Assembly (NCBI GenBank): GCA_000004985.1
Contig: GG738902.1
Length of the DNA stretch: 64,000 nucleotides
From: Naegleria gruberi
Taxonomy: Eukaryota
Strand: one strand, 5' to 3'
Made by a program: the position numbers and the translations under genes. This document shows, piece after piece, positions 31,194 through 48,096 of the stretch. Numbering within the stretch: position 1 is the stretch's first letter; the number at the start of each line of letters is the position of its first letter. Below the pieces are notes generated by a model. It saw only the letters and a program-made list of their open reading frames with translations. It was not told where the DNA came from and ran no database searches.

Positions 31194-31485
31194 TTTTTTT
31201 AACTGGAACCACAAGATCTCATCAAAAATCAACATTCAAACTCTTGAATTTTCCAACATTGCATTGTAAAAAGTTAACTTGACTTTCAAAGATTCGGCAA
31301 AGAACAACAAGGAACAACAAAGTTGGATTGAAACAAATTGATGATACACAGAAATCCATTAGAATGGATTTTTTCTCTTTTTAAGATTGATATTAACTCT
31401 AATAACACACCCTTTGGAACTTTGGCGTAACATTCCAGGAACAATGAATTCAATTCTTATTACAATTTTTCATTTTAAAAAAAAA

Positions 31486-32768
31486 ATGCTCAACACATCT
31501 GCTGCTACCGGAATCAACCAATCTAATAATAGCATCAATAATAACCTAAAAGACGAGAAGAATGATGATGAAATAACTAGTGAAGTGTGTCCTCTTTCAT
31601 TCTATGAAGAATCTGGTTTTTATCACAATCATTTAGAATATACAAACAAGTATTTGTATGATCCGAATCAATTTGTTGATCAATTTCATAAGAGTATAAA
31701 GGAGAAGAATTTTAACAAGTTGAGAAGTTTGAGAATTTTAATTCAACAGCAAACAATTGATATTTGTAGAAGTAGAGTGTATAATTATAGACCTATTGAT
31801 GGAGAATTTTCATTGGATAAGAAGAAGAGGATAGAATTGAGTGAGAAGATTCTCGTGAATGCCTCTGTAAAGAGTAAATATTATAAGAATGAAGGATTGG
31901 AGGTGAGTGAGAAGGTTGGAGATTTGGAAAAAACTCAAGTTTTGGTTATTAATGGTGATTGTATTGATATTGCATTCCATATTCAAGATTTGTTGATTAA
32001 GGAAGGTAAATTTGGAAAGGAAAGAGTTGCTGTATTGAATATGGCTAATCCAAATACACCTGGAGGTGGATACAAGGGAGGATGTGGGTAAGTTTCTTTC
32101 AATATTATTTAATCCAAAAATTCATATTGAAACTATATTACAGAGCTCAAGAAGAAAATTTACACAGAAGATCAAACTTGTATCAATGCTTGGACAATTA
32201 TGTAGACAAGATTGACAAGACTAGAACATGGAATTATCCAATAGGATATGAAAGTGGAGTCTATAGTCCAGATGTTACATTCTTCAGAGGATGTGAAGCT
32301 AAGGGTTATCCACTCCTTTCTGCTCCAAGATTAGTCGATGTCATTACCACTGCTGCAGTTCCAAACTCTCTCAATCATGGTGATGGAGAAATTGATGAGA
32401 GAAATATTGGCAGTATTGAGGCCATTTTAAAGATTGCAGTTCAACACGGAGTTAGAAATGTGGTCTTGTCGGCTCTTGGTTGTGGAGCTTTCAGAAACTC
32501 TCCAACAGCAATTGCTAAAGTTTTCAAGGAAAAGATTGAAGGTCCACAATTCAAAGGCCACTTTGATAGACTCTACTTTGCAATCATTGAAGATCACAAC
32601 TCAAAGAAGGGACATAATCCTGATGGAAATATCAAACCCTTTGTCCAAGTTTTCAATGATTATTTGAAGGATAGAACCGATGTAACAGAACTCACTGACT
32701 CACAATTCAATTATGATTATGATAATATGAATGATGTATATCAGCAATACTATGAAGAAAGTAGGTGA
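31486..32768 (+). CDS. Bacterial-type poly(ADP-ribose) glycohydrolase (DUF2263 / macro-fold PARG) in two exons: 31486..32087 and 32144..32768.
   Basis: Splicing GTAAGT...ATTACAG joins ...NTPGGGYKGGCG to AQEENLHRRSNLY. This creates the PARG catalytic signature GGG-X7-QEE. Downstream, ...VVLSALGCGAFRN... fits a macro-domain fold. The ATG context is AAAAAAAAATG. Confidence 0.7.
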
Positions 32769-34449: not shown

Positions 34450-35205
34450 ATGTCATCAGAGTTAATCGTGCCACCAACACCAAGAGGTGCAGCCTCTACA
34501 TCAGAAACAGCTCCAATCACTGAAATTGTAGCATTAAAAATTTCATACGAAATTCCAGAACAAATTTTATCCGAAAATGAACTTGATCAATCACACATTA
34601 GAATAACTTATTGTTTTCCTTCGGATACTTTAGTACAACAAGTTAAAAAACAATTTATTTCTCACTTGTTGGCTAAAGGAGTTGTTAATTTGGAAGTTTC
34701 TAATAAGAATGATGTAGATTCGAATACATTGGATCAGTTTCGTTTACTTGTTACAGGTGGAAAGGAATTATTAGTCGATAAAAAATCACTTCAAGAAAAT
34801 AGAATTGAAAATAATGGCAAACCACTTTCTGTCAATTTAATCAAAATTTCTAATAATCCATCCGAAACTGATGACGAAAATGTTGTAAACCTTTCAGATT
34901 ACGTCGAACGTGAAACTATCAAAATCAAAAAGAAACATGTCGAAGTCAAGCTCAGAATCCAAGAAAAAGTTGGTGATCAAGTTTTAACATGTGACATTTC
35001 CTGTAAAAACAATAAGAAATTTGGAGTCATTTCAAAAATGTATTGTCAACACAGAAATTATAATGCTGAAGATTTTGTGTTTGCAACAAGTGTTAATCAC
35101 GTCTTGTTGAAGAATGAAAAATCACTTTCAAGTATGGGAATGGTTGAGCAAGGAACTGTTTATGTTATTAATGTTTATCATAAGGATTTGGTTAGTTTTA
35201 AATAA
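34450..35205 (+). CDS. Hypothetical protein with two ubiquitin-like-fold segments, at low confidence.
   Basis: FRLLVTGGKELLVDKKSLQENRIENNGKPLSVNLI resembles the ubiquitin C-terminal half ([30 protein letters not shown]). A second similar block lies near the C-terminus. Confidence 0.35.
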   Translation: MSSELIVPPTPRGAASTSETAPITEIVALKISYEIPEQILSENELDQSHIRITYCFPSDTLVQQVKKQFISHLLAKGVVNLEVSNKNDVDSNTLDQFRLLVTGGKELLVDKKSLQENRIENNGKPLSVNLIKISNNPSETDDENVVNLSDYVERETIKIKKKHVEVKLRIQEKVGDQVLTCDISCKNNKKFGVISKMYCQHRNYNAEDFVFATSVNHVLLKNEKSLSSMGMVEQGTVYVINVYHKDLVSFK

Positions 35206-35269
35206 AGGAATTTTATGGAAATAAATCTATTGGAAAATTGAATTTTAACTCAAAATAGGAATGATGCAG

Positions 35270-35278
35270 AAAAAAAAA
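35270..35278 (-). terminator. Pol III oligo-T terminator for tRNA-Ala.
   Basis: Nine consecutive T on the tRNA strand (A9 on plus), 7 nt downstream of the tRNA 3' end. Confidence 0.6.
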
Positions 35279-35285
35279 GGTAAGT

Positions 35286-35357
35286 GGAGATGCGGGGTAT
35301 CGATCCCCGTACCTCTTCCATGCTAAAGAAGCGCTCTACCATGTGAGCTACATCCCC
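35286..35357 (-). tRNA. tRNA-Ala(AGC): tRNA-Ala, anticodon AGC.
   Basis: The reverse complement reads GGGGATGTAGCTCACATG(G)TAGAGCGCTTCTTTAGCATGGAAGAGGTACGGGGATCGATACCCCGCATCTCCA. It has the G3:U70 pair, the GGGGATGTAGCTCA 5' end typical of eukaryotic tRNA-Ala, and the anticodon loop TTAGCAT. A T9 run lies on the coding strand 7 nt past the 3' end. The 72-nt span reflects a D-loop read as ACATGTA; if it is ACATGGTA, as in the truncated copy at 44249, the gene is 73 nt and the end shifts by one base. Confidence 0.85.
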
Positions 35358-35632
35358 TTACATTCTTTTCGAAAACAAGTCTTAATACAACGTTGAAGAA
35401 CGATTTTTACCAGCTGGCAAGATCAAGAAATTCAAGTGTTATTTCAACAAATTATTAATAATTGAACTTAGCACATAATATTAATTTTCTCTCGGAACAT
35501 ACCTCAATTTCCGAAGTCAGACACCACTCAAAAAAAAAATGCACATCGGAATTTCACTCCCTTACTTAAATCTCACTCTTCTTTTCCGATGCCAATCAAT
35601 GAAAAAAACAAGAAAACATCAATATCTTCCAG

Positions 35633-36145
35633 ATGGCCAAAAACAAGACTGCCAAATCTCAAACTCCTCAAGTGAAACCTCAAATCCAAAAGATTGAAAA
35701 ACAACATCAACAAATCAATAATGATTTGAATAAGCAATTGAAGAAGGAAAATTCCGAAAAGAAGAAGCAACATCAAACTTCCTCAGATGCTGCTTTAAAG
35801 AATCAAGAGAGCAAGCAAGTGTCTTCAACAGGTTCATCTCCAGAAAATATTAAGACAGAAGTTACTCCTTCCAATAATCAGGCAACATCAGATTTGTCTC
35901 CTTCTTCCGAGAGCAAATCAAATGATAAGAGGGAGAAAACAATGGAAAGAATTAGAAAGGTGGTAAAACAATTGAAGGAAGATCAAAAGAAGGAAGAAAA
36001 GAAATCAAAAGTTTTGAAAACTCCACTTATTGAAGAAATTAACGAATCGGAGGAGAAGGAATGTCAATCTTCTGAATCATCTTCAGAGAAGAAAGAAGAA
36101 AACGAACGAAATGACGCAGAAGCAAGTACTGTTGAATGTAAATAA
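35633..36145 (+). CDS. K/E/S-rich low-complexity acidic-basic protein of 170 aa.
   Basis: ORF MAKNKTAKSQTPQVKPQIQK... is highly charged throughout, with no domain signature. Confidence 0.4.
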   Translation: MAKNKTAKSQTPQVKPQIQKIEKQHQQINNDLNKQLKKENSEKKKQHQTSSDAALKNQESKQVSSTGSSPENIKTEVTPSNNQATSDLSPSSESKSNDKREKTMERIRKVVKQLKEDQKKEEKKSKVLKTPLIEEINESEEKECQSSESSSEKKEENERNDAEASTVECK

Positions 36146-36183
36146 ATATTGAAAAGTTTAGTTTTGGTTTATTGGTGATCAAT

Positions 36184-37467
36184 TTACAGAATAGAGGTAG
36201 TGATTGGTTTGGAAAGATAGGATGACTTCCTTCGGGTAGGAAGTGTTTTGGAAGCTACAGAATTGAGAAGATTATCATTTTCTTGTTGTAGTTTGAGGAT
36301 TGTCTCTTCACGATCTAATCTCATCTTGTCAGCTTCATTAATGTGTGAAAATAGTTCAGAAATAGTTCGTTCTTGTTTTTTGGCAACTGTTTGAAGGTTG
36401 ATACTATTAGATTGTTCTCTCTTGACTTGTTCCTGAAGTTGCTTGATTTTCTGTTCAAGTTGTTGAATGGTATCTCGTTGTTGCTTTATCATTTCATCCT
36501 CTTCTTGTAGTCTCTTTCTATTCTTGTAAGGGGGCAGCCATTTATCGTGTTCAACCTTGAGCATTTCTTGTAAGAGTTTGTGATGCAGTGATGCAATAGA
36601 ATTTTTGGACTCATCTTCCAAAGATTTATCCACACTTTCAATTTCAGTTTCTCGACTTCCAACAATTTTCACTCTCGATTCACTCAAGAGATTGGCAAGC
36701 TTTTCCTTATCGAGACTGTTTTGAGTCTTTCCATCTTTTTCATGGAGCATGGTATTGAATGAAATGACGAGCCTGGATAAGGTTTGAGCTCTATCATGCC
36801 ATCGTTCTGCCCAATCATCAGAAATTTCCTTCTGTTGAGCCAACTCGTGGTTTCTATTCAAAAGAGTGGCATTCTGGGATTCAATTTGTGCTAAACGAGT
36901 TCTCAGCATTTCATTCTCTGTGTGAACATCTTTTGAAATGTCCTTTTGTGCACACAGATTTGCGTGAAGATAATTATTCGTCCTCACTGAATCCACAACT
37001 ATATGTTCATATTGTTTTTTACATTCTTTCTTTGTTTTGTTCAATTTTCCCTTCAAATGATCAATTTTCTGATCCCTCTTAGCTAAACTCAAATGTACAG
37101 AGAGTGGATCCATATCCAAGCATGCCCTTTCATATCTATCCTTCGTCGTTTCATCCAATGAATAATTACTATCAGAGTCTAACGAAGCAATGGAAGACAA
37201 GGAATTTGATCTTTTCAATCTTCCACCATCTCCACTTCCTCTCCTTAAATTACTAGATGATGATGATGAAAATGATGGCAACAAGTGCCTATAATAATAA
37301 TAAGGCATGTAAGGATAATAACGATTCGGAATGGAAAAGGCATCATCAACAGAACCGTGCCAAAGTACTGAAGAGGACGGAGCTGATGGATAATGATCAT
37401 AGGGATCTGCTCCTGCTGGCCAAACACTTGATGAATAGGGTCCTCCCCAACGATGATAATTGACCAT
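36184..37467 (-). CDS. Coiled-coil protein.
   Basis: The N-terminal Tyr/Pro-rich segment (YYPYMPYYYYRH) is followed by about 250 aa of heptad-like charged sequence (…LQEQVKREQSNSINLQTVAKKQE…). The track start is TTG. I chose the ATG in AAAAAAAATG context at 37467; an alternative ATG lies 54 nt upstream. Confidence 0.5.
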   Translation of the reverse strand: MVNYHRWGGPYSSSVWPAGADPYDHYPSAPSSSVLWHGSVDDAFSIPNRYYPYMPYYYYRHLLPSFSSSSSSNLRRGSGDGGRLKRSNSLSSIASLDSDSNYSLDETTKDRYERACLDMDPLSVHLSLAKRDQKIDHLKGKLNKTKKECKKQYEHIVVDSVRTNNYLHANLCAQKDISKDVHTENEMLRTRLAQIESQNATLLNRNHELAQQKEISDDWAERWHDRAQTLSRLVISFNTMLHEKDGKTQNSLDKEKLANLLSESRVKIVGSRETEIESVDKSLEDESKNSIASLHHKLLQEMLKVEHDKWLPPYKNRKRLQEEDEMIKQQRDTIQQLEQKIKQLQEQVKREQSNSINLQTVAKKQERTISELFSHINEADKMRLDREETILKLQQENDNLLNSVASKTLPTRRKSSYLSKPITTSIL

Positions 37468-37895
37468 TTTTTTTAAATCCTTTTTATTTACGATTTTTTT
37501 ATTACCAACACTTGACTTCATTTTCTGTAATGAATAACAAGCAGCAACCAACGCAAGGATGCAAATTCAGTCATTGCTCTTGTTGCTATTCGCATCAATA
37601 TTTACCACTATTTGCCGTGCCGTTATTAAATTGGCTCAAACAAATACTTGAACCAACAAGGCAAATCTTATTACCATGAACCTCAAATCAAGCAACAAGA
37701 TAACACCTCAACAATTTCATTAATACATAACACCAATTCGGCACTTGCTAGCCTTTTATTTTCACTTGTCTTGTTGTCACTTGGAAGGATAAATTGTGGC
37801 ATAAGTTCTTTTAGAGTAATTAGTCAATTAAATTTCAATTGAACTCTTTAGTCTAAGCCCTTGCAATTAATTGATATCAAAAAAAATCTGCAAAG

Positions 37896-40800
37896 ATGCC
37901 ACTACACCAAACTTTCATCTACACTGGGAAGCTACAACCAGACGAAACTAAACATACAACATTTCCAACAACAAGAACAATATCGCGGAATAGTCGAATT
38001 TCTTTCTCTTCATCAACTATAACCACAAATTTAATTATTTCAATTCTACTGCTAGCATTTATCACCTCTCTCATACAATCTCTATATTATCAGATAGTGT
38101 ATTCATCCAACAATGACAACAAACTTTATAGTCACACATTCTTTGTGAATGCTGCCACTACATGCTATGGTGTTGACAGCACGGATCCTAGTGTTTGCTC
38201 GGGTAATGGAAATTGTACCAGTAAGAATAATTGTGAGTGCAATGATGGATTTAGTGGAAACAAATGTCAAACAGAGACGGTGAAATGTTATGGTGTAGTA
38301 GATACTGATCCTACAGTATGTTCAGGTCATGGAAATTGCTCTAGTAAGAATAATTGTCTGTGTGATTCAGGGTACAGTGGTAACAAGTGTCAAACCTTTG
38401 ATGGTACTAGTTCGATATCGTGTTATGGAATCGATTCGACAGATAGTTCAGTTTGTAATTACAATGGTAATTGCACAGCAACGAATAATTGCGTTTGTAA
38501 TCAAGGATATAGTGGAAATCAGTGCCAAACATTGGATAGCTCTTTTAAATGTTATGGAGTTGACTCTACTGACGTTTCTGTTTGTAATGGAAATGGAAAT
38601 TGTACATCAACTAATAATTGTGTCTGCAAATCTGGTTACACTGGGAATCAATGTCAAAATGAAGATAGTTCATTTAAATGCTACGGGGTTGACTCGACAG
38701 ATATCTCTGTTTGTAGCGGAAATGGAAATTGTACAAGCTCAAACAATTGCGAATGCAAATCTGGTTATACTGGTAATCAATGTCAATCAATTGATAGCTC
38801 TTTCAAGTGTTATGGTGTTGATTCGATAGATATCTCTGTTTGCAATGGAAATGGTAATTGCACTAGTTCAAATAATTGTGTTTGTAAATCTGGTTACAGT
38901 GGAAATCAATGTCAAACCTATGATGGCGGTAATAGTGGTTCATTTAAATGCTATGGAGTTGATTCTAGTGATATCTCTGTTTGTAGTGGAAACGGTAACT
39001 GTACTTCTGCTAATAATTGTGAATGTAAGGCAGGTTATAGCGGCAATCAATGCCAAACCTTCTCTACCTCTTTTAAGTGTTATGGTGTTGATTCGACAGA
39101 TAGTTCAGTTTGTAATGGAAATGGCAATTGCACCTCCTCTAATAATTGCGAATGTAAATCTGGATACACAGGAAACCAATGTCAATCAATTGATAGCTCG
39201 TTCAAGTGTTATGGTGTTGATTCGATGGATGTCTCTGTTTGCAATGGAAATGGTAATTGCACTAGTTCAAACAACTGTGTTTGTAAATCTGGTTACAGTG
39301 GGAATCAATGTCAAAACAATGATGGCAGTAGCACCATTAAATGTTATGGTATTGATTCGACTGACCCATCAGTTTGCTCAGGTCATGGTATCTGTTCCTC
39401 AACCAACGACTGCCAATGTGAAAATGGTTACAGTGGAAATAAGTGTCAAACCTTTGCAAACGAAACATCTACTTTCAAATGTTATGGTGTAGATTCTTCG
39501 GATCCTACTGTTTGCTCTGGTAATGGAAACTGTACATCCACCAACAATTGCCAATGCCAATCAGGATTCAGTGGAAATAAGTGTCAAACTACAGTTAATT
39601 ATTGCTTTGGTTATGATGAAAATGATAACAATGTTTGTGGTGGTCCAGATCGAGGAAAATGTACATCTAACGATGTTTGTGAATGTAAGGGAAGCTACGT
39701 TGGTTACGATTGTGGTGCTTTTGTTTCAGACAAATCACTCATCAAAATAACCTCAAAATATTCAAAGATTCTAAGCACCAATACTGACATTAATTTCATA
39801 ACAATTAGTATTCCAAAGCTCACTAACAGCTACAAGGGAATTGAGAATAGACTCAAGAGTACTTTGGTGATTTTCAGCAGTAATGTTACTATTGATTATT
39901 CCACTACTGGAATGATTGAACAGTTTCAATTGTATAAGAACATGACACTTGGCGTCTACTCTCTCAATTTAACCATTGTTGATACTACTTATAACATTCA
40001 AGTTGCTGCTACTGTTGAGAGCTCAATATTTTCTATACTGACTCTTGAACAAACTACTCAAAGTGTGGATACCTTGACAGCAAAAGAAATTGCACAAGTT
40101 ACAAAGCAATTGAACCAAATTACAAACCAACAACAATTTATTTCTACTGTGGTTTCTACTTTGAAAGAGAATGTTAATAATTACACAATTGATGATGGTT
40201 TAGATTTGACTTCGTCACTATTAGATATTTCCAATGTCAAGTTGGATACTAAATCTAAACTGGGAATATCTGAAACCCTAAAATCATATGCTCAAAATAT
40301 GATCGAAAAGTTTGACAATTTCACAACAGAACAAGTCAAACCAGTTGCAATTAACATCGTTTCTGTTGCCTCAAATATTTTAAATCAATCTATATTTACT
40401 GAACCATCATCTAAATTTGTGGTTATCGGTAATTCTATTCAATCCGTTGAAAAGACACTTTCCCTTGTTACGATTGTTAATCCAACAGAAAATTTATCAA
40501 TTGAAACTTCGATGATTAAGGTTCTTCTCATTTCAAAATCAGAATACAAGAATTTACATACTATAGATAAGGATTATACTCTTAATCTTCCAGAATTGGG
40601 GTTTGAATATTCGTTTGGTTTGGTAAAATATGAAAATTACTTGACAGAAGATTTGCAAAACACAAGTTCAATTTCTGACATTTTGCAAGTGAGACCAATG
40701 TTGAATGGTGTTTTTAGCCCTCTCAGACATTTATCCACTCCATTCAATTTGACTTTCTCTATCAAACATTTCGGTGCGCCACCAAGTAATGAAACAGTTG

Positions 40801-42590
40801 CAACTGTGGTTTGCAAATATTGGAACGAAACAACTAATGAATGGTTGAGTGATGGATGTAGCACCACAATCCTTTCGGCTGATCAAGTCTTGTGCTCATG
40901 CTATCACACAACAAAGTTTTCCTCCTTTGTGGATTATTCTAAAGTGAATTTCAGTACCAGAACTATTCAGACATCACTAGCCGTTGCCAACATCATTTTC
41001 AGTTCCTTATTTATTGCTGCAATTCTAGTTATCCTTGTGTTGTTGGTAATTTTCAGAAAATCCCAACCTGTAAAATCAAGATTTATTACTCCCTACTTTG
41101 CATTAACTGCCCTATTGATTGATAATTTGGTTTCTGGTATTATTGCCAAAGGACTTTTACTTGGAAATTACTCATTCAATGTAGTTATCATGACAAGTGT
41201 CTGTGCAGTAATTTCAAGTGCACTATTGGCAAGTGCAGTCTGGTGCTATTTTGTCATGTCCATTCGTTTCATCATCCACAGATACTTTTACGAATACATG
41301 ATGAGAGTGGTTGAGAACAGACAACAAAAGAATGCCGTTTTGGTTAAGATTTTGAACATTTTCAAACAGGATAAGCTTCTCATCTTGTCTAGTTTGATGA
41401 TTGGTTTTGGTTTTGTCTTGTACTTTACCATTTTTATCATTTTGAAGGGAGTGGATGCTTTCTCTGATTCTCAATTCACTTACTCAACAACCATTTCATT
41501 GTTTATTATTTTACTTTTCATGACGGCGATGGTAATTGCTATTTACATTTTAGACTTTTATTTGGACTTTACAAACAAACAATTAAGAGATGAATTAGTT
41601 GACATATCTGATGAAATAATGTTATTAGAAAGTGGAGATTCAAGCTTGAACAATCTCAATTCTAGAAAATCCCTTAAAATTACAAAACCTTTCGTTGATT
41701 TGTTGGAACAATCCCATATTAAGAAGTTTTTCAATTTATTCTACTCAAATGACAAGTTAATGTTCAGACCTGAGGCCATTTTCTTCATGTTAGGTATTTC
41801 ATTCTTTACCATTTCTTACTGCTTGGGATTTGCCAGTGTCCATGACCGTTACGTATCAAATCCAACTTCTACACAAATTCAAACAGTCGACATTCTCGAT
41901 GCAGTTGCATTCCTTTTTGAAGTCTTGATGACCGTTTGTTTGATTACTAGCTTTGGAGGTTTCTCTGTTGGTTGGGCCATTTTCACTGAAACCAGAAAGA
42001 GAAGTTGCTTCAAGGAATCCAGACAAGCTTCTGTCAATGCTGAGAGAATCAAATCTCAAAGACTTGAAAGCTACGAGGATCTTACCAACAGGTTTGATGT
42101 TTACAAGCTCATGAAGAACAAGTACTTGTTAAGACTCTTCCAACAATATGCCAAGTTGGAAATGTCACTAGAAAATTATATTGTTTGGATGCGAATTGAA
42201 CATGCCAGATCTAAATTTGCCAAATTGTGGGTTGATATGGATGGAGAAGCAGCATCTATCGAGGAATGGAATTCACTCTTGGAGGAATTACTTGGATGGC
42301 TAAAGGATCACTTGGATCCAGATGCAGAACTCGCTCTCAATGTCAGCCACCACTCTGTTAAACAATTCATTGCTGCTGTGCATATGCTAGAAAGCAAAAT
42401 TGACACCATTTCAACTAAGAACAGAGATTCCCTATTCAATTTGAAAGAAATGGTTAGACAAGCCATTGATTCATTAATCATCGATGTTCTCTACAATTTA
42501 ACAGACACCTATTCAAGATTTATCATCACGGATGAATACAAAGCTCTCAAAGAAGTAGAATCTGTTACCGAAATGAATACTTTCAAATAA
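37896..42590 (+). CDS. Giant adhesion-GPCR-like receptor of 1564 aa: about 14 EGF-like repeats, a GPS-like motif, 7 TM helices and a C-terminal RGS-like domain.
   Basis: The repeat is CYGVDSTD.SVC.GNGNCTS.NNC.C..GY.GN.CQ. The GPS-like motif is VVCKYWNETTNEWLSDGCSTTILSADQVLCSCYHTTKFSSF, matching C.C.H.T.F. Seven hydrophobic helices follow. The C-terminal FDVYKLMKNKYLLRLFQQYAKLEMSLENYIVWMRIEH resembles the RGS N-terminal helices. Confidence 0.75.
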   Translation: MPLHQTFIYTGKLQPDETKHTTFPTTRTISRNSRISFSSSTITTNLIISILLLAFITSLIQSLYYQIVYSSNNDNKLYSHTFFVNAATTCYGVDSTDPSVCSGNGNCTSKNNCECNDGFSGNKCQTETVKCYGVVDTDPTVCSGHGNCSSKNNCLCDSGYSGNKCQTFDGTSSISCYGIDSTDSSVCNYNGNCTATNNCVCNQGYSGNQCQTLDSSFKCYGVDSTDVSVCNGNGNCTSTNNCVCKSGYTGNQCQNEDSSFKCYGVDSTDISVCSGNGNCTSSNNCECKSGYTGNQCQSIDSSFKCYGVDSIDISVCNGNGNCTSSNNCVCKSGYSGNQCQTYDGGNSGSFKCYGVDSSDISVCSGNGNCTSANNCECKAGYSGNQCQTFSTSFKCYGVDSTDSSVCNGNGNCTSSNNCECKSGYTGNQCQSIDSSFKCYGVDSMDVSVCNGNGNCTSSNNCVCKSGYSGNQCQNNDGSSTIKCYGIDSTDPSVCSGHGICSSTNDCQCENGYSGNKCQTFANETSTFKCYGVDSSDPTVCSGNGNCTSTNNCQCQSGFSGNKCQTTVNYCFGYDENDNNVCGGPDRGKCTSNDVCECKGSYVGYDCGAFVSDKSLIKITSKYSKILSTNTDINFITISIPKLTNSYKGIENRLKSTLVIFSSNVTIDYSTTGMIEQFQLYKNMTLGVYSLNLTIVDTTYNIQVAATVESSIFSILTLEQTTQSVDTLTAKEIAQVTKQLNQITNQQQFISTVVSTLKENVNNYTIDDGLDLTSSLLDISNVKLDTKSKLGISETLKSYAQNMIEKFDNFTTEQVKPVAINIVSVASNILNQSIFTEPSSKFVVIGNSIQSVEKTLSLVTIVNPTENLSIETSMIKVLLISKSEYKNLHTIDKDYTLNLPELGFEYSFGLVKYENYLTEDLQNTSSISDILQVRPMLNGVFSPLRHLSTPFNLTFSIKHFGAPPSNETVATVVCKYWNETTNEWLSDGCSTTILSADQVLCSCYHTTKFSSFVDYSKVNFSTRTIQTSLAVANIIFSSLFIAAILVILVLLVIFRKSQPVKSRFITPYFALTALLIDNLVSGIIAKGLLLGNYSFNVVIMTSVCAVISSALLASAVWCYFVMSIRFIIHRYFYEYMMRVVENRQQKNAVLVKILNIFKQDKLLILSSLMIGFGFVLYFTIFIILKGVDAFSDSQFTYSTTISLFIILLFMTAMVIAIYILDFYLDFTNKQLRDELVDISDEIMLLESGDSSLNNLNSRKSLKITKPFVDLLEQSHIKKFFNLFYSNDKLMFRPEAIFFMLGISFFTISYCLGFASVHDRYVSNPTSTQIQTVDILDAVAFLFEVLMTVCLITSFGGFSVGWAIFTETRKRSCFKESRQASVNAERIKSQRLESYEDLTNRFDVYKLMKNKYLLRLFQQYAKLEMSLENYIVWMRIEHARSKFAKLWVDMDGEAASIEEWNSLLEELLGWLKDHLDPDAELALNVSHHSVKQFIAAVHMLESKIDTISTKNRDSLFNLKEMVRQAIDSLIIDVLYNLTDTYSRFIITDEYKALKEVESVTEMNTFK
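38160..39720 (+). repeat. Tandem array of about 111-114-nt units encoding the EGF-like repeats of the receptor.
   Basis: Near-identical nucleotide units, each beginning aagtgttatggtgttgattcgacagat... and ending ...ggaaatcaatgtcaa. This explains the long ORFs in the other forward frames. Confidence 0.8.
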
Positions 42591-42672
42591 AATTTATTCA
42601 GGAAGCACGTATGATTAAGGCAAAGTTTTATTTAAATCCACGTATACTTTACTTCTTTATAAAATGAGATAA

Positions 42673-43910
42673 TTATCTTTTAATGGGCGGGCGTGTCTGT
42701 AAATCACTGATTGAATAATCCTGGAATATTTTCAACATGCGCTCTCTATTCATCAATTTTGTAGTGTGTGTAATTATTAAATCTCCTCTTTTACAAACGA
42801 ATTCGAATAGATCATCCCCAATATAATCCTCATGAATATAGTGAATGTAAAGAAGAATCTCAGGATACTTTGAAAAAAAGGGTGCAACTTCATAATATTC
42901 ATAACATGTACTCACTGAGACATCATACCGTAAAGTTAATTCCAAATATTTCAATCTTTCGGTTCTAGGAATATAGCGGATACACTTTGGTACAATTGAA
43001 AGAATTTGAGGTAGGAATGTAGCTTGTTCCTTGACAAAGCGAAATGTTGAGGGATCTCTTTTCACACAATTCATTACAATTTCCTGATAATTTTCAATGG
43101 CAGGATCAACATATTGGAGGGTGAGAGGATCCAACTCAAGTGCTGGTATTACAATTTCTGGATTCTTTTTGAAAGCTGCAGTCATAAATTGAAGATTGTG
43201 TGGCAGTTTTCTAATGGCCAATAGAGCCATTTCTAAATCAGATTTGAATTCAAAATAAATGTATCTGAATAAATGTGGATTAATTTCTAGAGCCATCTTG
43301 GTTAATTCTCTATCTTTTCTCAATTCCAATTTGATAAATGAAAAGGAAGCTGGATTTAATCTCATATTAATCAATGATTCTTTTACAATTTGCATATCCT
43401 GAAGAGATTCATCAAATTTTTCAAATGAAACTCCATAATTGAGCATTTCCATCATTAATTCTCTATCATTTCTATAAGAATGATTCGTTGGAAAATGATG
43501 TGCTTCCCTCTTTTTTTATCCAATTTCAGAATTTTCAAAAGATATTCAATCGATGAATCGTGACTCAAGGCATAAATTACAAATTCTCTCATTTTAAACA
43601 ATGATTCATCTAAAAGTTTTGCAATTTTTTGTGGATTTCCTTTTCCACTTTGAATTATTTGCATCATGAGTTCTTTATCTTTTCTAAAAGATTTTGGAAT
43701 TAGCTCAAGACATTCTGGATCAATTTCAAATGCCATTAACATTGATTCTCTTGTTTCTTTCCAATTATCTGGGAAATATGAAAATTTTGGATTGATTTGT
43801 TGTCCACTTTTGGCAGCCATCTTGCCTAATTCAAAATCCTTTTCCAAATTATTGACATTTGGCACATATCCATATTTGCTAGCCACCAATTCAAGAATTT
43901 CTCTATCCAT
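42673..43910 (-). pseudogene. DUF4116-like repeat protein gene. It is read as two ORFs (43455..43910 and 42673..43455) separated by a +1 frameshift at an A7 homopolymer.
   Basis: Both ORFs carry the same helical repeat (…MAFEIDPECLELIPKSFRKDKELMMQII… / …MALEINPHLFRYIYFEFKSDLEMALLAI… / NPEIVIPALELDPLTLQYVDPAIENYQEIVMNCVKRDPSTFRFV). Adding one A to the run at 43511..43517 fuses them into one continuous reading frame of about 410 aa. Confidence 0.55.
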
Positions 43911-44248
43911 ACACCAATTAGACTCTTTAAATAATGAATACAGACAATCAGAATCTCTATTCGAAGAGAGTTTCTAATAGCTATTCTATGTTCGACCACG
44001 ACACTCAAGTATATCTTGAATTTCCATTTTTTTAGAACATTCAATCAATATTTCTTTATCAACACTGCGCAACCAACCAACTCTTTTCAAATACTCCCAA
44101 TAATTTGTTTCCTTTCTCAACTGGAACAAAAGCACGCTACATGATTAACAGATCGAAGTAAAAACTAGTTTGTTCGTTGCTTAGTTGGTTATTTTCACTT
44201 TTGTATTAAGACTAATATTTAATTGAATAGATTTCTTAATGAATGTTA

Positions 44249-44307
44249 GGGGATGTAGCTCACATGGTAGAGCGCTTCTTTAGCATGGAAGAGGTACGGG
44301 GATCGAT
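44249..44307 (+). pseudogene. 3'-truncated tRNA-Ala(AGC) copy, followed by a T6 run.
   Basis: The first 59 nt, GGGGATGTAGCTCACATGGTAGAGCGCTTCTTTAGCATGGAAGAGGTACGGGGATCGAT, are identical or nearly identical to the full gene at 35286..35357. The sequence then jumps directly to CTTTTTTG. The missing segment is ACCCCGCATCTCCA plus the trailer. The T-stem and acceptor 3' strand are absent, so it cannot fold as a tRNA. Confidence 0.7.
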
Positions 44308-44308
44308 C

Positions 44309-44314
44309 TTTTTT
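44309..44314 (+). terminator. Oligo-T run immediately after the truncated tRNA-Ala copy.
   Basis: CTTTTTTG begins one base after the truncation point, so a Pol III transcript of the fragment would terminate here. Confidence 0.4.
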
Positions 44315-44785
44315 GTACGCTTCTATCTTTTTCAATGGAACAAGTTGAAATTACCTTCAATTATTTAAAATAGAATCTTTTTGTAGTATTATTTGAATAA
44401 CATTCTTAGCTAAGAACCATTAGATGACAAAAAACCAAAAACCGCCCAGCAAAACCGTTACACCATTATAAATGGTTTTTCAAAAAAAAACACCATCAAG
44501 AATTTATTCTCACCTGCAATGAAGTAACAACGACACACAGGTGCTAGTTTCAAATCCACATCAAATTACCTGTCTAGATGCCCTTTGCCAATTCTCTTTT
44601 ACCAAGAGCAAAGTGAAAGTCCCCAAAAGATGTTTCCACCATAATACAAAAACAAGTAACACATATTTTCATATATGAATAATATCTATTGCAAGATATT
44701 ATAATCACCATCAAACTATTTGACAAATAAAATTAGCCGGCTGGTTTGCCATCATAATATCCAAGTTGGATTTCAAACAACAAAA

Positions 44786-47700
44786 ATGTCCAAATTGCTT
44801 CTCCTACTATTACTTTCTCTTTTATTTGCAACAACAACAACACGAATAATCAGTGCCTACATCCTGCTACCACAACAATCAGCATCATCTTCACTTTATA
44901 ATAACCAAGATGATAATTCATCATCAACAACTATAATAACATCATCCTCATCATCATCAAATGTATTACTTTCTGCTACAGCAGCAGTGGTGGTGGAGAG
45001 GAATAAAACATTCTATATCAATGAAGCGAATGGCACACAAAGTGGTGATTGTTCCGAGCCTTCAAAAGCCTGCTCCTCCATCCTCTATTTAACTGGTTTG
45101 ATTTCACGATCGACCGATTATTTAACAAACAAGTTTTTAATCTATCTAATAGGAGATTGTATTAAATATGAACCAATAACATTCAGTACCATGACCTTGA
45201 CGAGTACTTTTATATTTCTCTCATACAATGATTCAAATAATACAAATAATAGTAGTGGCAGTACAGTTAATAGAGTGACATTGGCAAATAAGAGATGGTT
45301 AGCTCAATTTTCAAGTATGGGATTTGAAAATTTAATTGTGGACAAGATGGAAATATTTCCAGGAGATGGATTTTCATTTGTGAATTGTCTGGTTAGAGGG
45401 ATGAGTTTGAAGAGAGGATTTACTTGGATGATTGTGAAGAATACAGTGATTGAGGATTCAATTTTTGGAGATGATAGTGTCACGAGTTATATGAGGAATA
45501 AGGACGATAGACCAGTGATTGAAATTACACAGAGTAGAATTGTTCGTTCAAAGATGAATTTAGAATCAATTACTAATGTTATGAACTGTAATTTTACCGA
45601 ATCTAATATGACGATTAGCAATTCAGTATCTTCAACATTGCAGAATATTGCTGTTAACAATTCTAGAATTTTATTAAGAGTTGTCTTTTATATTAATGTG
45701 AATTATTTTGATTGCTCCAATAGTAGTTCATCATTTGCAATTGATGGAGCCAATGAGGTTAAAATTGTGAGGTTCAATTTTGAGAATTGTAATAATTATG
45801 GAGAAAGTACTCTCTTCTCTACTGTTAGGACTTTAAATATTGATCACATGAATTATATTAGAAATAAGGGTGCACTTACGTTTTTAGGAGTTTACCAAAC
45901 TAATATGGGATCATCTAATTTTATTGAGAATAGAAATGGTGCCATTCAAGTGGAAAATCATGGCGACTCACCAACATATTTTGTCGTGCAAGGTTCCAAG
46001 TTTTTGAGAAATAGCAGATTATCAAATGGTGGAGCTATTTATATGGATTCAGCTTTATCAAATTTCCATACCTATTCTAGTGTATTTGAAGATAATATGG
46101 CATTGAATGGAGGTGCTGTATATGTATTAGCATCCATTAGAAATACCTATACCAATACTGTTTTTAACAGAAATAAGGTTACAGACTGTGCTAAATGCGG
46201 TAATGGTGGAGCTCTTTATTCCAACACAAACTCTCTAGAGTGGAGATCCTCCAATTTTACAAATAATGTAGCCATTAAGGGAGGAGCTGTTTTTATTGAT
46301 AGAGTACCATCTATTACCTTTGAAACTCAGGATATTGTGTTTCAAAATAATGAAGCTCAATTTGGATCAGACTTTTTCTTTGAAAAGTATGAAGTTGACA
46401 AGTTCCCTGTTGATAAATATGCAAACTCTACTGCCAGCTCAATTATGAAGAGTTTCAAAGTACTCATGAATAATATTGAGATAGACTCAGGAAAGAACTT
46501 TGATGTCTATCCAGGTGAAACGATACAATTACAATATTCCTTTGAAGACATATTTGGAAATAGAATTGAATCTTCTCATAATCAACCTGTCATATCCTCT
46601 GATGCAAATATTACTCTATACACAGTTTTTACCTCAAATACGGACTTTAAGTTGCTCTTTGATTTGAATAATAAGGGAGAGATATCTACAACTGTTGAAT
46701 TGGTCATTGCCTATTCAGAATTTACTGTAATTAGTGAATTGCATCTCACCATTGCTCCATGTCCACAGTATCATCGTTTACAACAGGTCAATTTTAATGG
46801 ATACAAATGTGTCAAGCAAGATGTATTGCTTATTATCATTTCCTCTGTACTTTCATTTATTTCCCTGCTTATAATAATACCATTCATTTCATTCATTCTT
46901 TACAGGTTTGCACTCAAAAAGTTGTTTATATTCTACAAGAGAGAACGAGAGGAGAGAAGAATTGAAAAGCAATTGAAAGATTACCTCTTTAGAAATATTA
47001 ATGCCAATGATGAGAAACAAGGTCTCCTCAAATCTTTGACACATTCTAATATGATAATTCCAATCAGTGACATTCAAATTGTTTCCAAAATAGGAGAAGG
47101 ATCGAATGGTGTAGTATATTTGGGGCGATGGAAACAAACTGACGTTGCCCTCAAAAGTATCAAACATGATTCTACCGATATTGATATTGAAAATCAATTA
47201 GAAGAATTTGAACATGAAGCTTCCTTATTAGCAAGCTTACGTCATCCCAATGTCATTTCATTTTATGGTATTAGTTTCGGTCTCAATGTACAATACATGG
47301 TAGTTGAATATTCAGTTAATGGAAGTTTGGACAAGGCAATTCATCAATCCAAGATTAAGAAGAAGGTTCTCAGTTTTAGAGATAAGATTAATATTGTTCT
47401 TGGAATTTCAAAAGGTTTAAATTACTTGCATTCATTGAGACCACAAATGATTGTTCACAGGTATGTATTTGAATAGTCTTATTGAGATTAATACTGAAAT
47501 TATCAAATAATTTTAGAGATTTGAAACCTGGAAATATTCTATTGGATAGTAATTTTGAGCCAAAGGTAACAGATTTTGGAATGAGTCGATTTATTGGAAC
47601 TGAAAATTCATCCATGACCATGAATGTTGGTACATTACGATATTGTGCACCTGAGATATTCAACAATGACAAACACGATGCCAATCACATGGTCGATGTC

Positions 47701-48096
47701 TACTCATTCTCAATGATTATGTATGAATTATTATTTGAGGATGCTCCCTTCTCTGAAAATACTAAAAAGATGAAGAATAGAAGTTCAGGAATCTCTACAT
47801 CTGACTCCTCATCCGTAACAAGTGGAAGTGGTTCAAATAATATTAATGAAATGTACAGTATTCCAGTTCGAGTAGTGAGAGGAGAACGCCCAAGCATTCC
47901 CTTCTCGAATGAAAATGAATTGGAAATGTGGGCTGATGAGTTTATTACTGATAATGCCTCTCTAAACTACAAAGTACAAGCTCTTGAACAATATATTGAA
48001 TTGATGAAACAGTGTTGGGCTCAAGCTCCAAATCAAAGACCATCCTTTGGTCAAATTTCGGAAACCCTTTTGAATATTAGCATTTCTTTCAGATAA
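44786..48096 (+). CDS. Receptor-like protein kinase with a signal peptide, a parallel beta-helix (PbH1-type) ectodomain, one TM and a TKL/Ser-Thr-type kinase domain. Two exons: 44786..47460 and 47517..48096.
   Basis: Signal peptide MSKLLLLLLLSLLFATTTT. Repeated NGGAIY, NGGAVYV, GNGGALYS and KGGAVFI motifs. The TM is VLLIIISSVLSFISLLIIIPFISFIL. Kinase motifs are GEGSNGVVYLGRW...VALKSIK, HPNVISFYG, and HR|DLKPGNILL with DFGMSRF and YCAPE. The intron is GTATGT...TTTTAG and its phase is consistent. Confidence 0.8.

What the first reader, a model, noticed from the sequence alone, without database searches (positions are those of the whole stretch)
35286..44314. Intact tRNA-Ala(AGC) and a 3'-deleted copy in inverted orientation, each followed by an oligo-T run, bracketing about 8.9 kb
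The fragment at 44249..44307 matches the first 59 nt of the intact gene, possibly with a 1-nt D-loop difference. It includes the A box and half of the B box, and then jumps directly to a T6 run. The full gene has a T9 run after a 7-nt trailer. The two copies face opposite directions. They flank five genes: the K/E-rich protein, the coiled-coil protein, the giant receptor, the DUF4116 pseudogene and an antisense ORF region. The fragment could still be transcribed by Pol III into a 5' tRNA-half-like RNA. It could also be a footprint of an inversion or duplication, or of a tRNA-targeted element excision.
Basis: seen in the sequence. Interest (0 to 1): 0.55.

Follow-up and report, generated by a model that had tools for sequence, protein, structure and literature searches.

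The report
Broken second copy of tRNA-Ala gene
In this stretch of the Naegleria gruberi genome, a working alanine tRNA gene has a nearby inverted sister copy that has lost its last 14 bases; this is an ordinary dead gene relic from an old local duplication.

Summary
The window is Naegleria gruberi nuclear DNA. An intact tRNA-Ala(AGC) gene lies at 35285-35357 (-). At 44249-44307 (+) there is a 59/59 identical copy of tRNA nucleotides 1-59, with no D-loop difference, followed by C and T6.

Both flanks of the two copies are weakly but significantly homologous and collinear. They show about 65-79% identity over aligned bases, with indels, across roughly 190-210 bp. So the pair comes from an old DNA-level inverted duplication of a whole tDNA unit, not from retroposition or an element footprint.

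The damage is confined to about 20 nt between tRNA position 59 and the terminator. It is either a 19-nt deletion onto the gene's own oligo-T, or a same-length replacement. Perfect identity of nt 1-59 next to diverged flanks implies one of two things. Either the copy was kept intact until recently, or gene conversion homogenises it.

It is not a split, permuted or intron-containing tRNA, because no 3' piece exists in the window. No mobile-element remains and no neighbouring small-RNA gene were found. Inversion of the 8.9-kb block cannot be tested, because the nearest genomes share no synteny there. Re-inverting the block would not restore the one conserved adjacency I found.

Verdict: an ordinary truncated tRNA pseudogene, of low interest.

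The parts
35285..35357 (-). Intact tRNA-Ala(AGC) gene, 73 nt, with G3:U70, an A box and a B box (GGGATCGATACC)
   Evidence: ARAGORN. Rfam RF00005, 53.6 bits. Cloverleaf minimum-free-energy fold at -30.8 kcal/mol, z = -3.65.
35270..35278 (-). T9 run (Pol III terminator) of the intact gene, after the 6-nt trailer CTTACC (35279-35284)
   Evidence: Read directly from the sequence. T runs of 9 or more occur at only 0.08 per kb per strand.
35378..35390 (-). Upstream 13-mer TTGTATTAAGACT at -33..-21 of the intact gene. It contains a TATA-like TATTAA at about -30 and is shared exactly with the fragment's upstream flank.
   Evidence: It occurs only twice in 64 kb, both times upstream of a tRNA copy in the same relative orientation. 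The anchored upstream alignment gives p about 0.003.
35208..35252 (-). Downstream flank block homologous to the fragment's downstream flank (45 nt, 69% identity). It ends 1-3 nt from the stop codon of the 251-aa gene (35203-35205).
   Evidence: It is the best non-tRNA match in a 3 kb x 3 kb blastn comparison, and it is collinear (E = 0.026). Smith-Waterman scores against random window segments give p = 0.0003-0.008. The anchored global alignment gives p about 0.0007.
44201..44213 (+). The same 13-mer TTGTATTAAGACT upstream of the fragment, at -48..-36. It is displaced by a 15-nt indel relative to the intact copy.
44249..44307 (+). Truncated tRNA-Ala(AGC) copy: nt 1-59, 100% identical to the intact gene. 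It has the A box and B-box positions 52-59. The 3' T-stem strand, the 3' acceptor strand and the discriminator base are missing.
   Evidence: 59/59 identity. Rfam scores it at only 22 bits, below the gathering score of 29. ARAGORN does not call it.
44308..44327 (+). The lesion: 20 nt (CTTTTTTGTACGCTTCTATC) occupy the place of tRNA nt 60-73 plus the trailer. Only 5 of 20 positions match the intact copy. The stretch includes T6 at 44309-44314.
   Evidence: Global alignments under four scoring schemes. No other copy of this patch exists in the window.
44328..44332 (+). T5 run that aligns in register with the intact gene's T9 terminator. It may be the original terminator of this copy.
   Evidence: Global alignments.
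44361..44405 (+). Downstream flank block homologous to 35208-35252

Best explanation
The fragment is the relic of a second tRNA-Ala(AGC) gene.

Shown: a tDNA unit of about 200 bp (about 40-55 nt of 5' flank, the gene, the terminator and about 100 nt of 3' flank) exists twice in inverted orientation, 8.9 kb apart. The flanks have diverged to about 65-79% identity with several indels. tRNA nt 1-59 are identical in both copies. The roughly 20 nt from position 60 to the terminator are destroyed in one copy.

Inferred:
1. The duplication was DNA-mediated and old.
2. Both copies were held constant in the gene body, by purifying selection on two working genes, by gene conversion among the many identical tRNA-Ala copies of this tDNA-rich genome, or by both.
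3. One copy then suffered a small lesion. One possibility is a single 19-nt deletion (nt 60-73 plus CTTAC of the trailer), which in an intact-like ancestor yields exactly GATCGAT-C-T(n). The other is a same-length 20-nt replacement during break repair.

Without the 3' T-stem and 3' acceptor strands it cannot make a tRNA. It keeps an A box, 8 of 11 B-box positions and an oligo-T run. It may therefore still recruit TFIIIC and Pol III weakly and give a short transcript of about 65-70 nt. RNase P could not process such a transcript, so it should be unstable. This is inference and was not tested. No function need be assumed.
For: - Organism: the 251-aa ORF is 100% identical to an N. gruberi protein. 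N. gruberi has 924 tDNAs in its genome (PMC2888827). tDNA birth and death is therefore expected.
- Identity: 59/59.
- Flank homology: the best non-tRNA blastn match of a 3 kb x 3 kb comparison is the collinear downstream block (E = 0.026). Smith-Waterman scores against random window segments give p = 0.0003-0.008 downstream and 0.014-0.13 upstream, depending on the scoring scheme. Anchored global alignments give p = 0.0007 downstream and 0.003 upstream. The upstream 13-mer is unique to the two loci.
- Flank identity is 0.65-0.79 over aligned bases, with 13-15 gap columns on each side. At 70-80% per-site identity, the chance of 59/59 identical positions is 7e-10 to 2e-6. The gene body was therefore constrained or homogenised.
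- T runs of 6 or more occur at 0.8 per kb per strand, so a T6 starting 1 nt after the break has a chance probability of about 0.002. This fits a deletion ending at the gene's own terminator.
- Rfam scores the fragment below threshold (22 against 29 bits).
- No 3' piece exists anywhere in the window.
Against: - Only one genome and one window could be examined. I could not see the other N. gruberi tRNA-Ala loci. The upstream similarity could therefore partly reflect a promoter motif shared by all tRNA genes (TATA-like, at about -30) rather than common descent.
- The two models of the lesion cannot be separated. Global alignment prefers the in-register 20-nt replacement. Parsimony and the T6 adjacency favour the 19-nt deletion.
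- Perfect identity of 59 nt is also what selection on a functional fragment would give.
Confidence: 0.8

Rival explanations
1. The fragment is a maintained Pol III or TFIIIC element. It might make a stable 5' tRNA-Ala-like small RNA of about 65 nt. Alternatively it might act as a TFIIIC-bound promoter or boundary element for neighbours, as tRNA-like A/B-box elements do for snRNA genes in trypanosomatids, which are fellow Discoba.
For: - 59/59 identity beside about 70%-identical flanks.
- The A box is intact, B-box positions 52-59 are intact, and T6 follows immediately.
- A documented precedent exists. In Leishmania major, a tRNA-like sequence with A and B boxes is transcribed and drives U2 snRNA (PMC4950102).
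Against: - Lenient Rfam scans found no snRNA, 7SL or any other known small-RNA family within about 350 nt upstream of either copy, or anywhere else in the window.
- The region upstream of the fragment has no fold signal (z = +0.58). Read on the divergent strand, it has a T4 run soon after the expected start.
- The predicted 64-nt RNA folds no better than shuffled sequence (z = -1.29).
- B-box C61 and C62 are lost.
- Gene conversion or a recent lesion explains the identity without invoking function.
Confidence: 0.06
2. The two inverted tDNA copies mark, or mediated, an inversion of the 8.9-kb block between them.
For: - Inverted repeats of 83 nt at 92% identity bracket the block (I1).
- The intact tDNA unit abuts a real synteny break. 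Its homology block ends 1-3 nt after the stop codon of the 251-aa gene. In N. fowleri, N. lovaniensis and a metagenomic Naegleria-like species, the conserved convergent neighbour of that gene is a G-alpha gene.
Against: - In N. gruberi the orthologous G-alpha gene (26988-29528) lies on the other side of the 251-aa gene, outside the block. Re-inverting the block would not restore the ancestral adjacency.
- None of the bracketed genes has an ortholog in the related loci fetched, so orientation cannot be polarised.
- Only 2 of 36 window ORFs match the N. fowleri region. Breakpoints are everywhere at this evolutionary distance.
Confidence: 0.1
3. The fragment is a footprint of the insertion or excision of a tRNA-targeted mobile element, or a retroposed (SINE-like) tRNA copy.
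For: In other protists and yeasts, tRNA genes are integration targets (established knowledge: Dictyostelium TRE and DGLT-A, yeast Ty1 and Ty3). The break lies next to an oligo-T run.
Against: - No reverse transcriptase, integrase or transposase domain passes Pfam's own cut-off in any ORF of the block or its neighbours. The only related hit is a sub-cut-off hAT-like transposase match in the EGF receptor ORF (16.7 bits against a cut-off of 27).
- No LTR-like or TIR-like repeats other than the tDNA pair were found.
- Homology extends 40-55 nt upstream of the tRNA start, beyond any Pol III transcript, and into the 3' flank. The copy was therefore made from DNA, not RNA.
- There is no poly-A tail.
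Confidence: 0.02
4. The fragment is the 5' part of a split, permuted or T-loop-intron tRNA gene, and its 3' part lies elsewhere.
For: The break at position 59/60 in the T loop is one of the junction positions I recall, from my own knowledge, for permuted tRNA genes of Cyanidioschyzon merolae.
Against: - The 14-nt 3' piece ACCCCGCATCTCCA occurs only in the intact gene, even when 2 mismatches are allowed.
- T6 directly after the break would terminate Pol III.
- The diverged downstream flank shows that this was once a normal contiguous gene.
Confidence: 0.01
5. The fragment is an assembly artefact: a chimeric join inside a repeated tRNA sequence.
For: There are many identical tDNA copies in this genome (924 tDNAs).
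Against: Both flanks of the fragment are collinear homologs of the flanks of the intact copy, which a chimeric join would not give. A 73-nt repeat is also much shorter than Sanger reads (own knowledge of the N. gruberi assembly).
Confidence: 0.01

Closest known systems
Truncated tRNA pseudogenes and tDNA relics in eukaryotic nuclear genomes (survey: Bermudez-Santana et al. 2010, PMC2888827)
   Same: A partial copy of a functional tRNA gene that fails tRNA-model thresholds, in a genome with rapid tDNA turnover. N. gruberi is listed there with 924 tDNAs.
   Different: Nothing essential differs. Two details are particular to this case. The surviving 59 nt are still perfect, and the gene's flanks survive in diverged form. 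Together these date the duplication as old and the lesion, or the last gene conversion, as recent.
Concerted evolution of dispersed tRNA genes by intergenic gene conversion (S. pombe serine tRNA genes; Munz et al. 1982 and Amstutz et al. 1985, cited from my own knowledge and not read here)
   Same: Gene bodies stay identical while flanks diverge freely.
   Different: Conversion is only inferred here as one of two ways to explain 59/59 identity. No experiment or population data are available.
Trypanosomatid tRNA-like A/B-box elements that drive divergent snRNA or 7SL genes (for example L. major U2; PMC4950102)
   Same: A non-tRNA-coding, tRNA-like sequence with A and B boxes, in a member of Discoba. 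The Leishmania element is itself transcribed.
   Different: No small-RNA gene is detectable upstream of the Naegleria fragment. The fragment is a perfect partial copy of a neighbouring gene rather than a diverged tRNA-like sequence, and its B box has lost C61 and C62.
Split and permuted tRNA genes (Nanoarchaeum equitans, Cyanidioschyzon merolae; own knowledge)
   Same: A tRNA gene piece that ends inside a loop.
   Different: There is no partner piece. A terminator follows directly. The flanks show that this was once a contiguous gene.

Membership tests
Functional tRNA gene (Rfam RF00005) | Complete cloverleaf scoring at or above the Rfam gathering threshold, or called by a tRNA finder | tested here: not met
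   The fragment scores 22 bits against a threshold of 29, and ARAGORN does not call it. The intact copy scores 53.6 bits.
Functional tRNA gene (Rfam RF00005) | A 3' acceptor strand and a 3' T-stem strand that can pair with the 5' strands | tested here: not met
   After nt 59 the sequence is CTTTTTTGTACGCT. There is no CATCTCC-like strand. The minimum-free-energy fold has no acceptor or T arm.
tRNA pseudogene made by DNA-level duplication | High identity to a functional tRNA over only part of its length | tested here: met
   59/59 identity to nt 1-59 of the intact tRNA-Ala(AGC).
tRNA pseudogene made by DNA-level duplication | Homology continues into non-transcribed flanks on both sides | tested here: met
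   Upstream p about 0.003 and downstream p about 0.0007 in anchored alignments. Collinear blastn matches. The upstream 13-mer is unique to the two loci. Caveat: the upstream part could be a shared promoter motif.
Retroposed tRNA copy / tRNA-derived SINE | Homology starts at the transcript 5' end, with an A-rich tail, target-site duplications and many dispersed copies | tested here: not met
   Homology reaches -40/-55. There is no A tail. Only two copies exist in the window. Genome-wide copy number could not be tested.
Split, permuted or T-loop-intron tRNA gene | A separate 3' piece that completes the cloverleaf | tested here: not met
   ACCCCGCATCTCCA with up to 2 mismatches is found only in the intact gene. 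This was tested in the window only.
Trypanosomatid-type tRNA-like promoter element | A Pol III small-RNA gene (snRNA or 7SL) about 100 bp upstream in divergent orientation | tested here: not met
   Rfam scans at E <= 1 and E <= 10 give no such family. Fold z = +0.58. An unknown RNA family cannot be excluded.
Trypanosomatid-type tRNA-like promoter element | A and B boxes bound by TFIIIC, and the element transcribed | not testable with these tools
   The A box is intact and 8 of 11 B-box positions are intact (read from the sequence). Binding and transcription need ChIP, northern blotting or small-RNA sequencing.
Inversion between inverted repeats | Opposite orientation of the bracketed block in an outgroup with the same flanks | not testable with these tools
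   No syntenic orthologs of the bracketed genes exist in the available Naegleria loci. N. gruberi itself is not in the contig index.
tRNA-targeted mobile element footprint | Element remnants (RT or IN ORFs, LTRs or TIRs, target-site duplications) next to the tDNA | tested here: not met
   Pfam finds no such domain above its own cut-off in the eight ORFs between 33087 and 47476. The only related hit is a sub-cut-off hAT-like match (16.7 bits against 27) in the EGF receptor ORF. No further long repeats were found.

The most novel reading that the evidence does not exclude
The truncated copy is not decaying. It is kept as a Pol III or TFIIIC element in a heterolobosean. It would either be a dedicated gene for a 5' tRNA-Ala-like small RNA of about 65 nt, ending at its own T6, or a tRNA-like promoter or boundary element comparable to those of the related trypanosomatids. 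That would explain why 59 nt are perfect while the flanks have drifted to about 70% identity.
Probability: 0.05. Interest if true: 0.5.

Novelty: new member of a known kind. Interest (0 to 1): 0.13.

Why it matters
It matters little beyond annotation. It is one clear example of tDNA birth and death in a genome with an unusually large tDNA complement. It also illustrates that identity within a tRNA body says nothing about the age of a copy, whereas the flanks do. The locus could serve as a strain-level marker in the N. gruberi complex, depending on whether the lesion is present or absent. If it turned out to be transcribed, it would be a cheap test case for Pol III promoter requirements in Heterolobosea.

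Tried and rejected
1. Exact-protein look-ups of N. gruberi ORFs in the contig index found nothing. The rest of the N. gruberi genome and sister strains were therefore out of reach.
2. Synteny with N. fowleri, N. lovaniensis and a metagenomic Naegleria-like species gave little. Only the 251-aa gene and a G-alpha gene are shared. Those loci contain no tRNA genes.
3. The coiled-coil gene inside the block has no homolog outside N. gruberi. The kinase next to the fragment has only paralogs at about 30% identity. No outgroup exists for the block.
4. Two metagenome scans, one for the truncation junction and one for the tRNA body, gave 0 hits.
5. A search for the missing 3' piece of the tRNA found only the intact gene. 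The split, permuted and intron readings were rejected.
6. A search for a local template of the 20-nt patch found none.
7. Lenient Rfam scans for small-RNA genes next to either copy gave only noise-level hits, such as mir-84, SpR10 and snoRNA-like matches far below their thresholds.
8. The bacterial-type promoter and terminator scan is irrelevant for a eukaryote and gave nothing useful.
9. I looked for a one-strand C->T hypermutation pattern in the lesion, because CCCCGC appears as TTTTTT. I rejected this as over-reading, because the 59 nt next to it carry many unchanged C residues.

Full report
**Source and context.** The window has about 33-36% GC and long, mostly uninterrupted ORFs. The 251-aa ORF at 34450-35205 is 100% identical to an NCBI 'predicted protein [Naegleria gruberi]' on a 305,921-bp contig. 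Its orthologs in N. lovaniensis and N. fowleri are 68-70% identical. So this is nuclear DNA of the heterolobosean amoeboflagellate N. gruberi. A published survey counts 924 tDNAs in this genome (PMC2888827). On the ~41-Mb genome size I know for this species (not a tool result), that is about one per 44 kb. One or two tDNAs in a 64-kb window is therefore expected.

**Checking the observation.**
- ARAGORN finds exactly one tRNA gene, tRNA-Ala(AGC) at 35284-35357 on the minus strand.
- Rfam RF00005 places it at 35285-35357 with 53.6 bits. It folds into a clean cloverleaf (-30.8 kcal/mol, z = -3.65).
- The segment 44249-44307 (+) is identical to tRNA nt 1-59 at all 59 positions. The suspected D-loop difference does not exist.
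- A 26-nt probe from the 5' end hits only these two places, with none expected by chance.
- In the fragment, one C and then T6 (44309-44314) follow the break.
- In the intact gene, a 6-nt trailer CTTACC and then T9 (35270-35278) follow the discriminator base.
- The two copies are inverted with their 5' ends facing inward (pair I1: 83 nt, 92%).
- Rfam scores the fragment at 22 bits, below the threshold of 29.

**What the flanks show.** This is the main new result. The similarity does not stop at the tRNA.
- Upstream: both copies have GAATGT(A/T)A directly before +1. Both have the exact 13-mer TTGTATTAAGACT, preceded by TTCA. A 15-nt indel displaces the 13-mer in the fragment. The 13-mer occurs nowhere else in the 64 kb.
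- Downstream: a 45-nt block (35208-35252 against 44361-44405) is 69% identical. It is the best non-tRNA match in a 3 kb x 3 kb blastn comparison, and it is collinear with the tRNA (E = 0.026).
- Against random segments of the same window, Smith-Waterman scores give p = 0.0003-0.008 downstream and 0.014-0.13 upstream. Alignments anchored at the gene give p = 0.0007 downstream and 0.003 upstream.

So a whole tDNA unit of roughly 190-210 bp (35208-35397 and 44194-44405) exists twice. Because homology reaches 40-55 nt upstream of the transcription start region, the copy was made from DNA, not from a Pol III transcript. Flank identity is only 0.65-0.79 over aligned bases, with 13-15 gap columns per side. 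The duplication is therefore old on the neutral clock.

**The contrast with the gene body.** If nt 1-59 had evolved like the flanks, 59/59 identity would have a probability of 7e-10 at 70% per-site identity and 2e-6 at 80%. The gene body was therefore held constant. Either both copies were working genes under purifying selection until one was damaged recently, or gene conversion among the many identical tRNA-Ala copies keeps overwriting the homologous 59 nt. Conversion among dispersed tRNA genes is an established phenomenon in S. pombe (own knowledge). I cannot separate these two readings with one genome.

**The lesion.** The damage is confined to the roughly 20 nt between position 59 and the terminator. 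Two readings fit.
- (i) A single 19-nt deletion. Removing nt 60-73 plus CTTAC from a sequence like that of the intact copy gives exactly GATCGAT-C-T(n), which is what is seen. T runs of 6 or more occur at only 0.8 per kb per strand. A T6 starting one base after a random breakpoint therefore has a chance of about 0.002. This argues that the T6 is the gene's own terminator.
- (ii) A same-length replacement. All four global alignments put the T5 at 44328-44332 opposite the T9 of the intact gene. That leaves exactly 20 nt in both copies between position 59 and the T run, with only 5 of 20 positions identical. No template for this patch exists in the window.

Either way the copy cannot make a tRNA.

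**Alternatives tested.**
- Split, permuted or T-loop-intron gene: the 14-nt 3' piece occurs only in the intact gene, even with 2 mismatches allowed. A terminator follows the break. Rejected.
- Mobile-element footprint or SINE: no reverse transcriptase, integrase or transposase domain passes Pfam's cut-off in the bracketed or adjacent ORFs. What is found is ERG4/ERG24, an EGF-repeat receptor, DUF4116 and a protein kinase. There are no other long repeats, and the 5' flank is homologous. Rejected.
- Trypanosomatid-style tRNA-like promoter. In L. major, a tRNA-like sequence with A and B boxes drives the U2 snRNA gene and is itself transcribed (PMC4950102). Naegleria belongs to the same supergroup, so I looked for a divergent small-RNA gene. 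Lenient Rfam scans found nothing credible near either copy or anywhere in the window. The 180 nt upstream of the fragment fold no better than shuffles (z = +0.58). Not supported, though an unknown RNA family cannot be excluded.
- Assembly chimera: unlikely, because both flanks of the fragment are collinear homologs of the flanks of the intact copy.

**Inversion and synteny.**
- The suggested comparison with related genomes could be done only in part. N. gruberi proteins are not in the contig index.
- Three other Naegleria lineages were available: N. fowleri, N. lovaniensis and a metagenomic species. In all three, the ortholog of the 251-aa gene is followed convergently by a G-alpha gene, and no tRNA gene is present within the fetched loci.
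- The orthologous G-alpha gene of N. gruberi (26988-29528, 52-56% aa identity over its full length) lies 4.9 kb on the other side of the 251-aa gene. Three unrelated genes lie between them.
- The conserved adjacency is therefore broken at the 3' end of the 251-aa gene, where the tDNA unit begins. Its homology block ends 1-3 nt after the stop codon.
- This is suggestive, but only 2 of 36 window ORFs match the N. fowleri region at all. Breakpoints are dense at this evolutionary distance.
- Re-inverting the 8.9-kb block would not restore the ancestral adjacency.
- The bracketed genes have no usable orthologs. An inversion of the block is therefore neither supported nor excluded.

**Could the fragment be transcribed?** The A box (TAGCTCACATGG) and B-box positions 52-59 (GGATCGAT) are intact. 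Positions 61 and 62 are C->T. A TATA-like stretch lies near -30. T6 follows directly. Weak Pol III transcription into a primary transcript of about 65-70 nt is therefore plausible. Such an RNA lacks the acceptor and T-arm helix that RNase P needs (established knowledge). It also has no notable fold (z = -1.29). I expect it to be unstable. This step is inference only.

**Verdict.** This is an ordinary truncated tRNA pseudogene, the damaged twin of a nearby working gene. It arose from an old local inverted duplication of a tDNA unit of about 200 bp in a genome that is very rich in tDNAs. It is a new instance of a well-known kind, and its interest is low. The only non-trivial open point is whether the perfect 59 nt reflect a very recent lesion, ongoing gene conversion, or (least likely) selection on a Pol III or TFIIIC element.

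Noticed in passing
window 26988-29528 (-) and 34450-35205 (+); L001 10001-13763, L004 10001-13747, L006 2361-5120: A microsynteny break. In N. fowleri, N. lovaniensis and a metagenomic Naegleria-like species, the 251-aa gene and a G-alpha gene are immediate convergent neighbours. In N. gruberi the orthologous G-alpha gene lies 4.9 kb away on the other side, with three other genes between (a 491-aa ORF, PARG and ERG4/ERG24). The tRNA-Ala unit sits directly after the stop codon of the 251-aa gene.
   Followed up: partly
window 42673-43455 and 43455-43910 (-): The DUF4116-repeat gene is split into two adjacent ORFs in different frames. The junction lies near an A7 run at about 43480. It could be a frameshift (pseudogene or sequencing error) or a very short intron. 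A 103-aa ORF on the opposite strand (43666-43977) is probably spurious.
   Followed up: partly
window 31387-32091 and 32082-32768 (+): A microbial-type PARG catalytic domain is split across two overlapping ORFs in different frames (profile positions 11-96 and 97-145). This suggests a frameshift or a short intron.
   Followed up: no
window 44720-47476 and 47482-48096 (+): The protein kinase domain is split between two ORFs 5 nt apart in different frames, at about profile position 122-126. A short intron is likely. The large N-terminal part has only distant relatives that carry PF02415 (Chlamydia polymorphic-membrane-protein-type repeat) domains.
   Followed up: no
window 37896-42590 (+), repeats 38155-39700: A 1564-aa ORF with 11-12 tandem 129-nt (43-aa) EGF-like repeats at 63-78% DNA identity, a DUF7949 domain, and a weak C-terminal RGS-like match below the Pfam cut-off. 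It looks like a receptor-like protein.
   Followed up: no
window 36184-37551 (-): The coiled-coil protein inside the block has no detectable homolog outside N. gruberi in a search of 5.8 billion proteins. It appears to be a lineage-specific gene.
   Followed up: no
window 35430-35610 (+): The region between the intact tRNA gene and the K/E-rich ORF folds somewhat better than shuffled sequence (z = -2.39; 3 of 200 shuffles fold as well). It matches no known RNA family.
   Followed up: no
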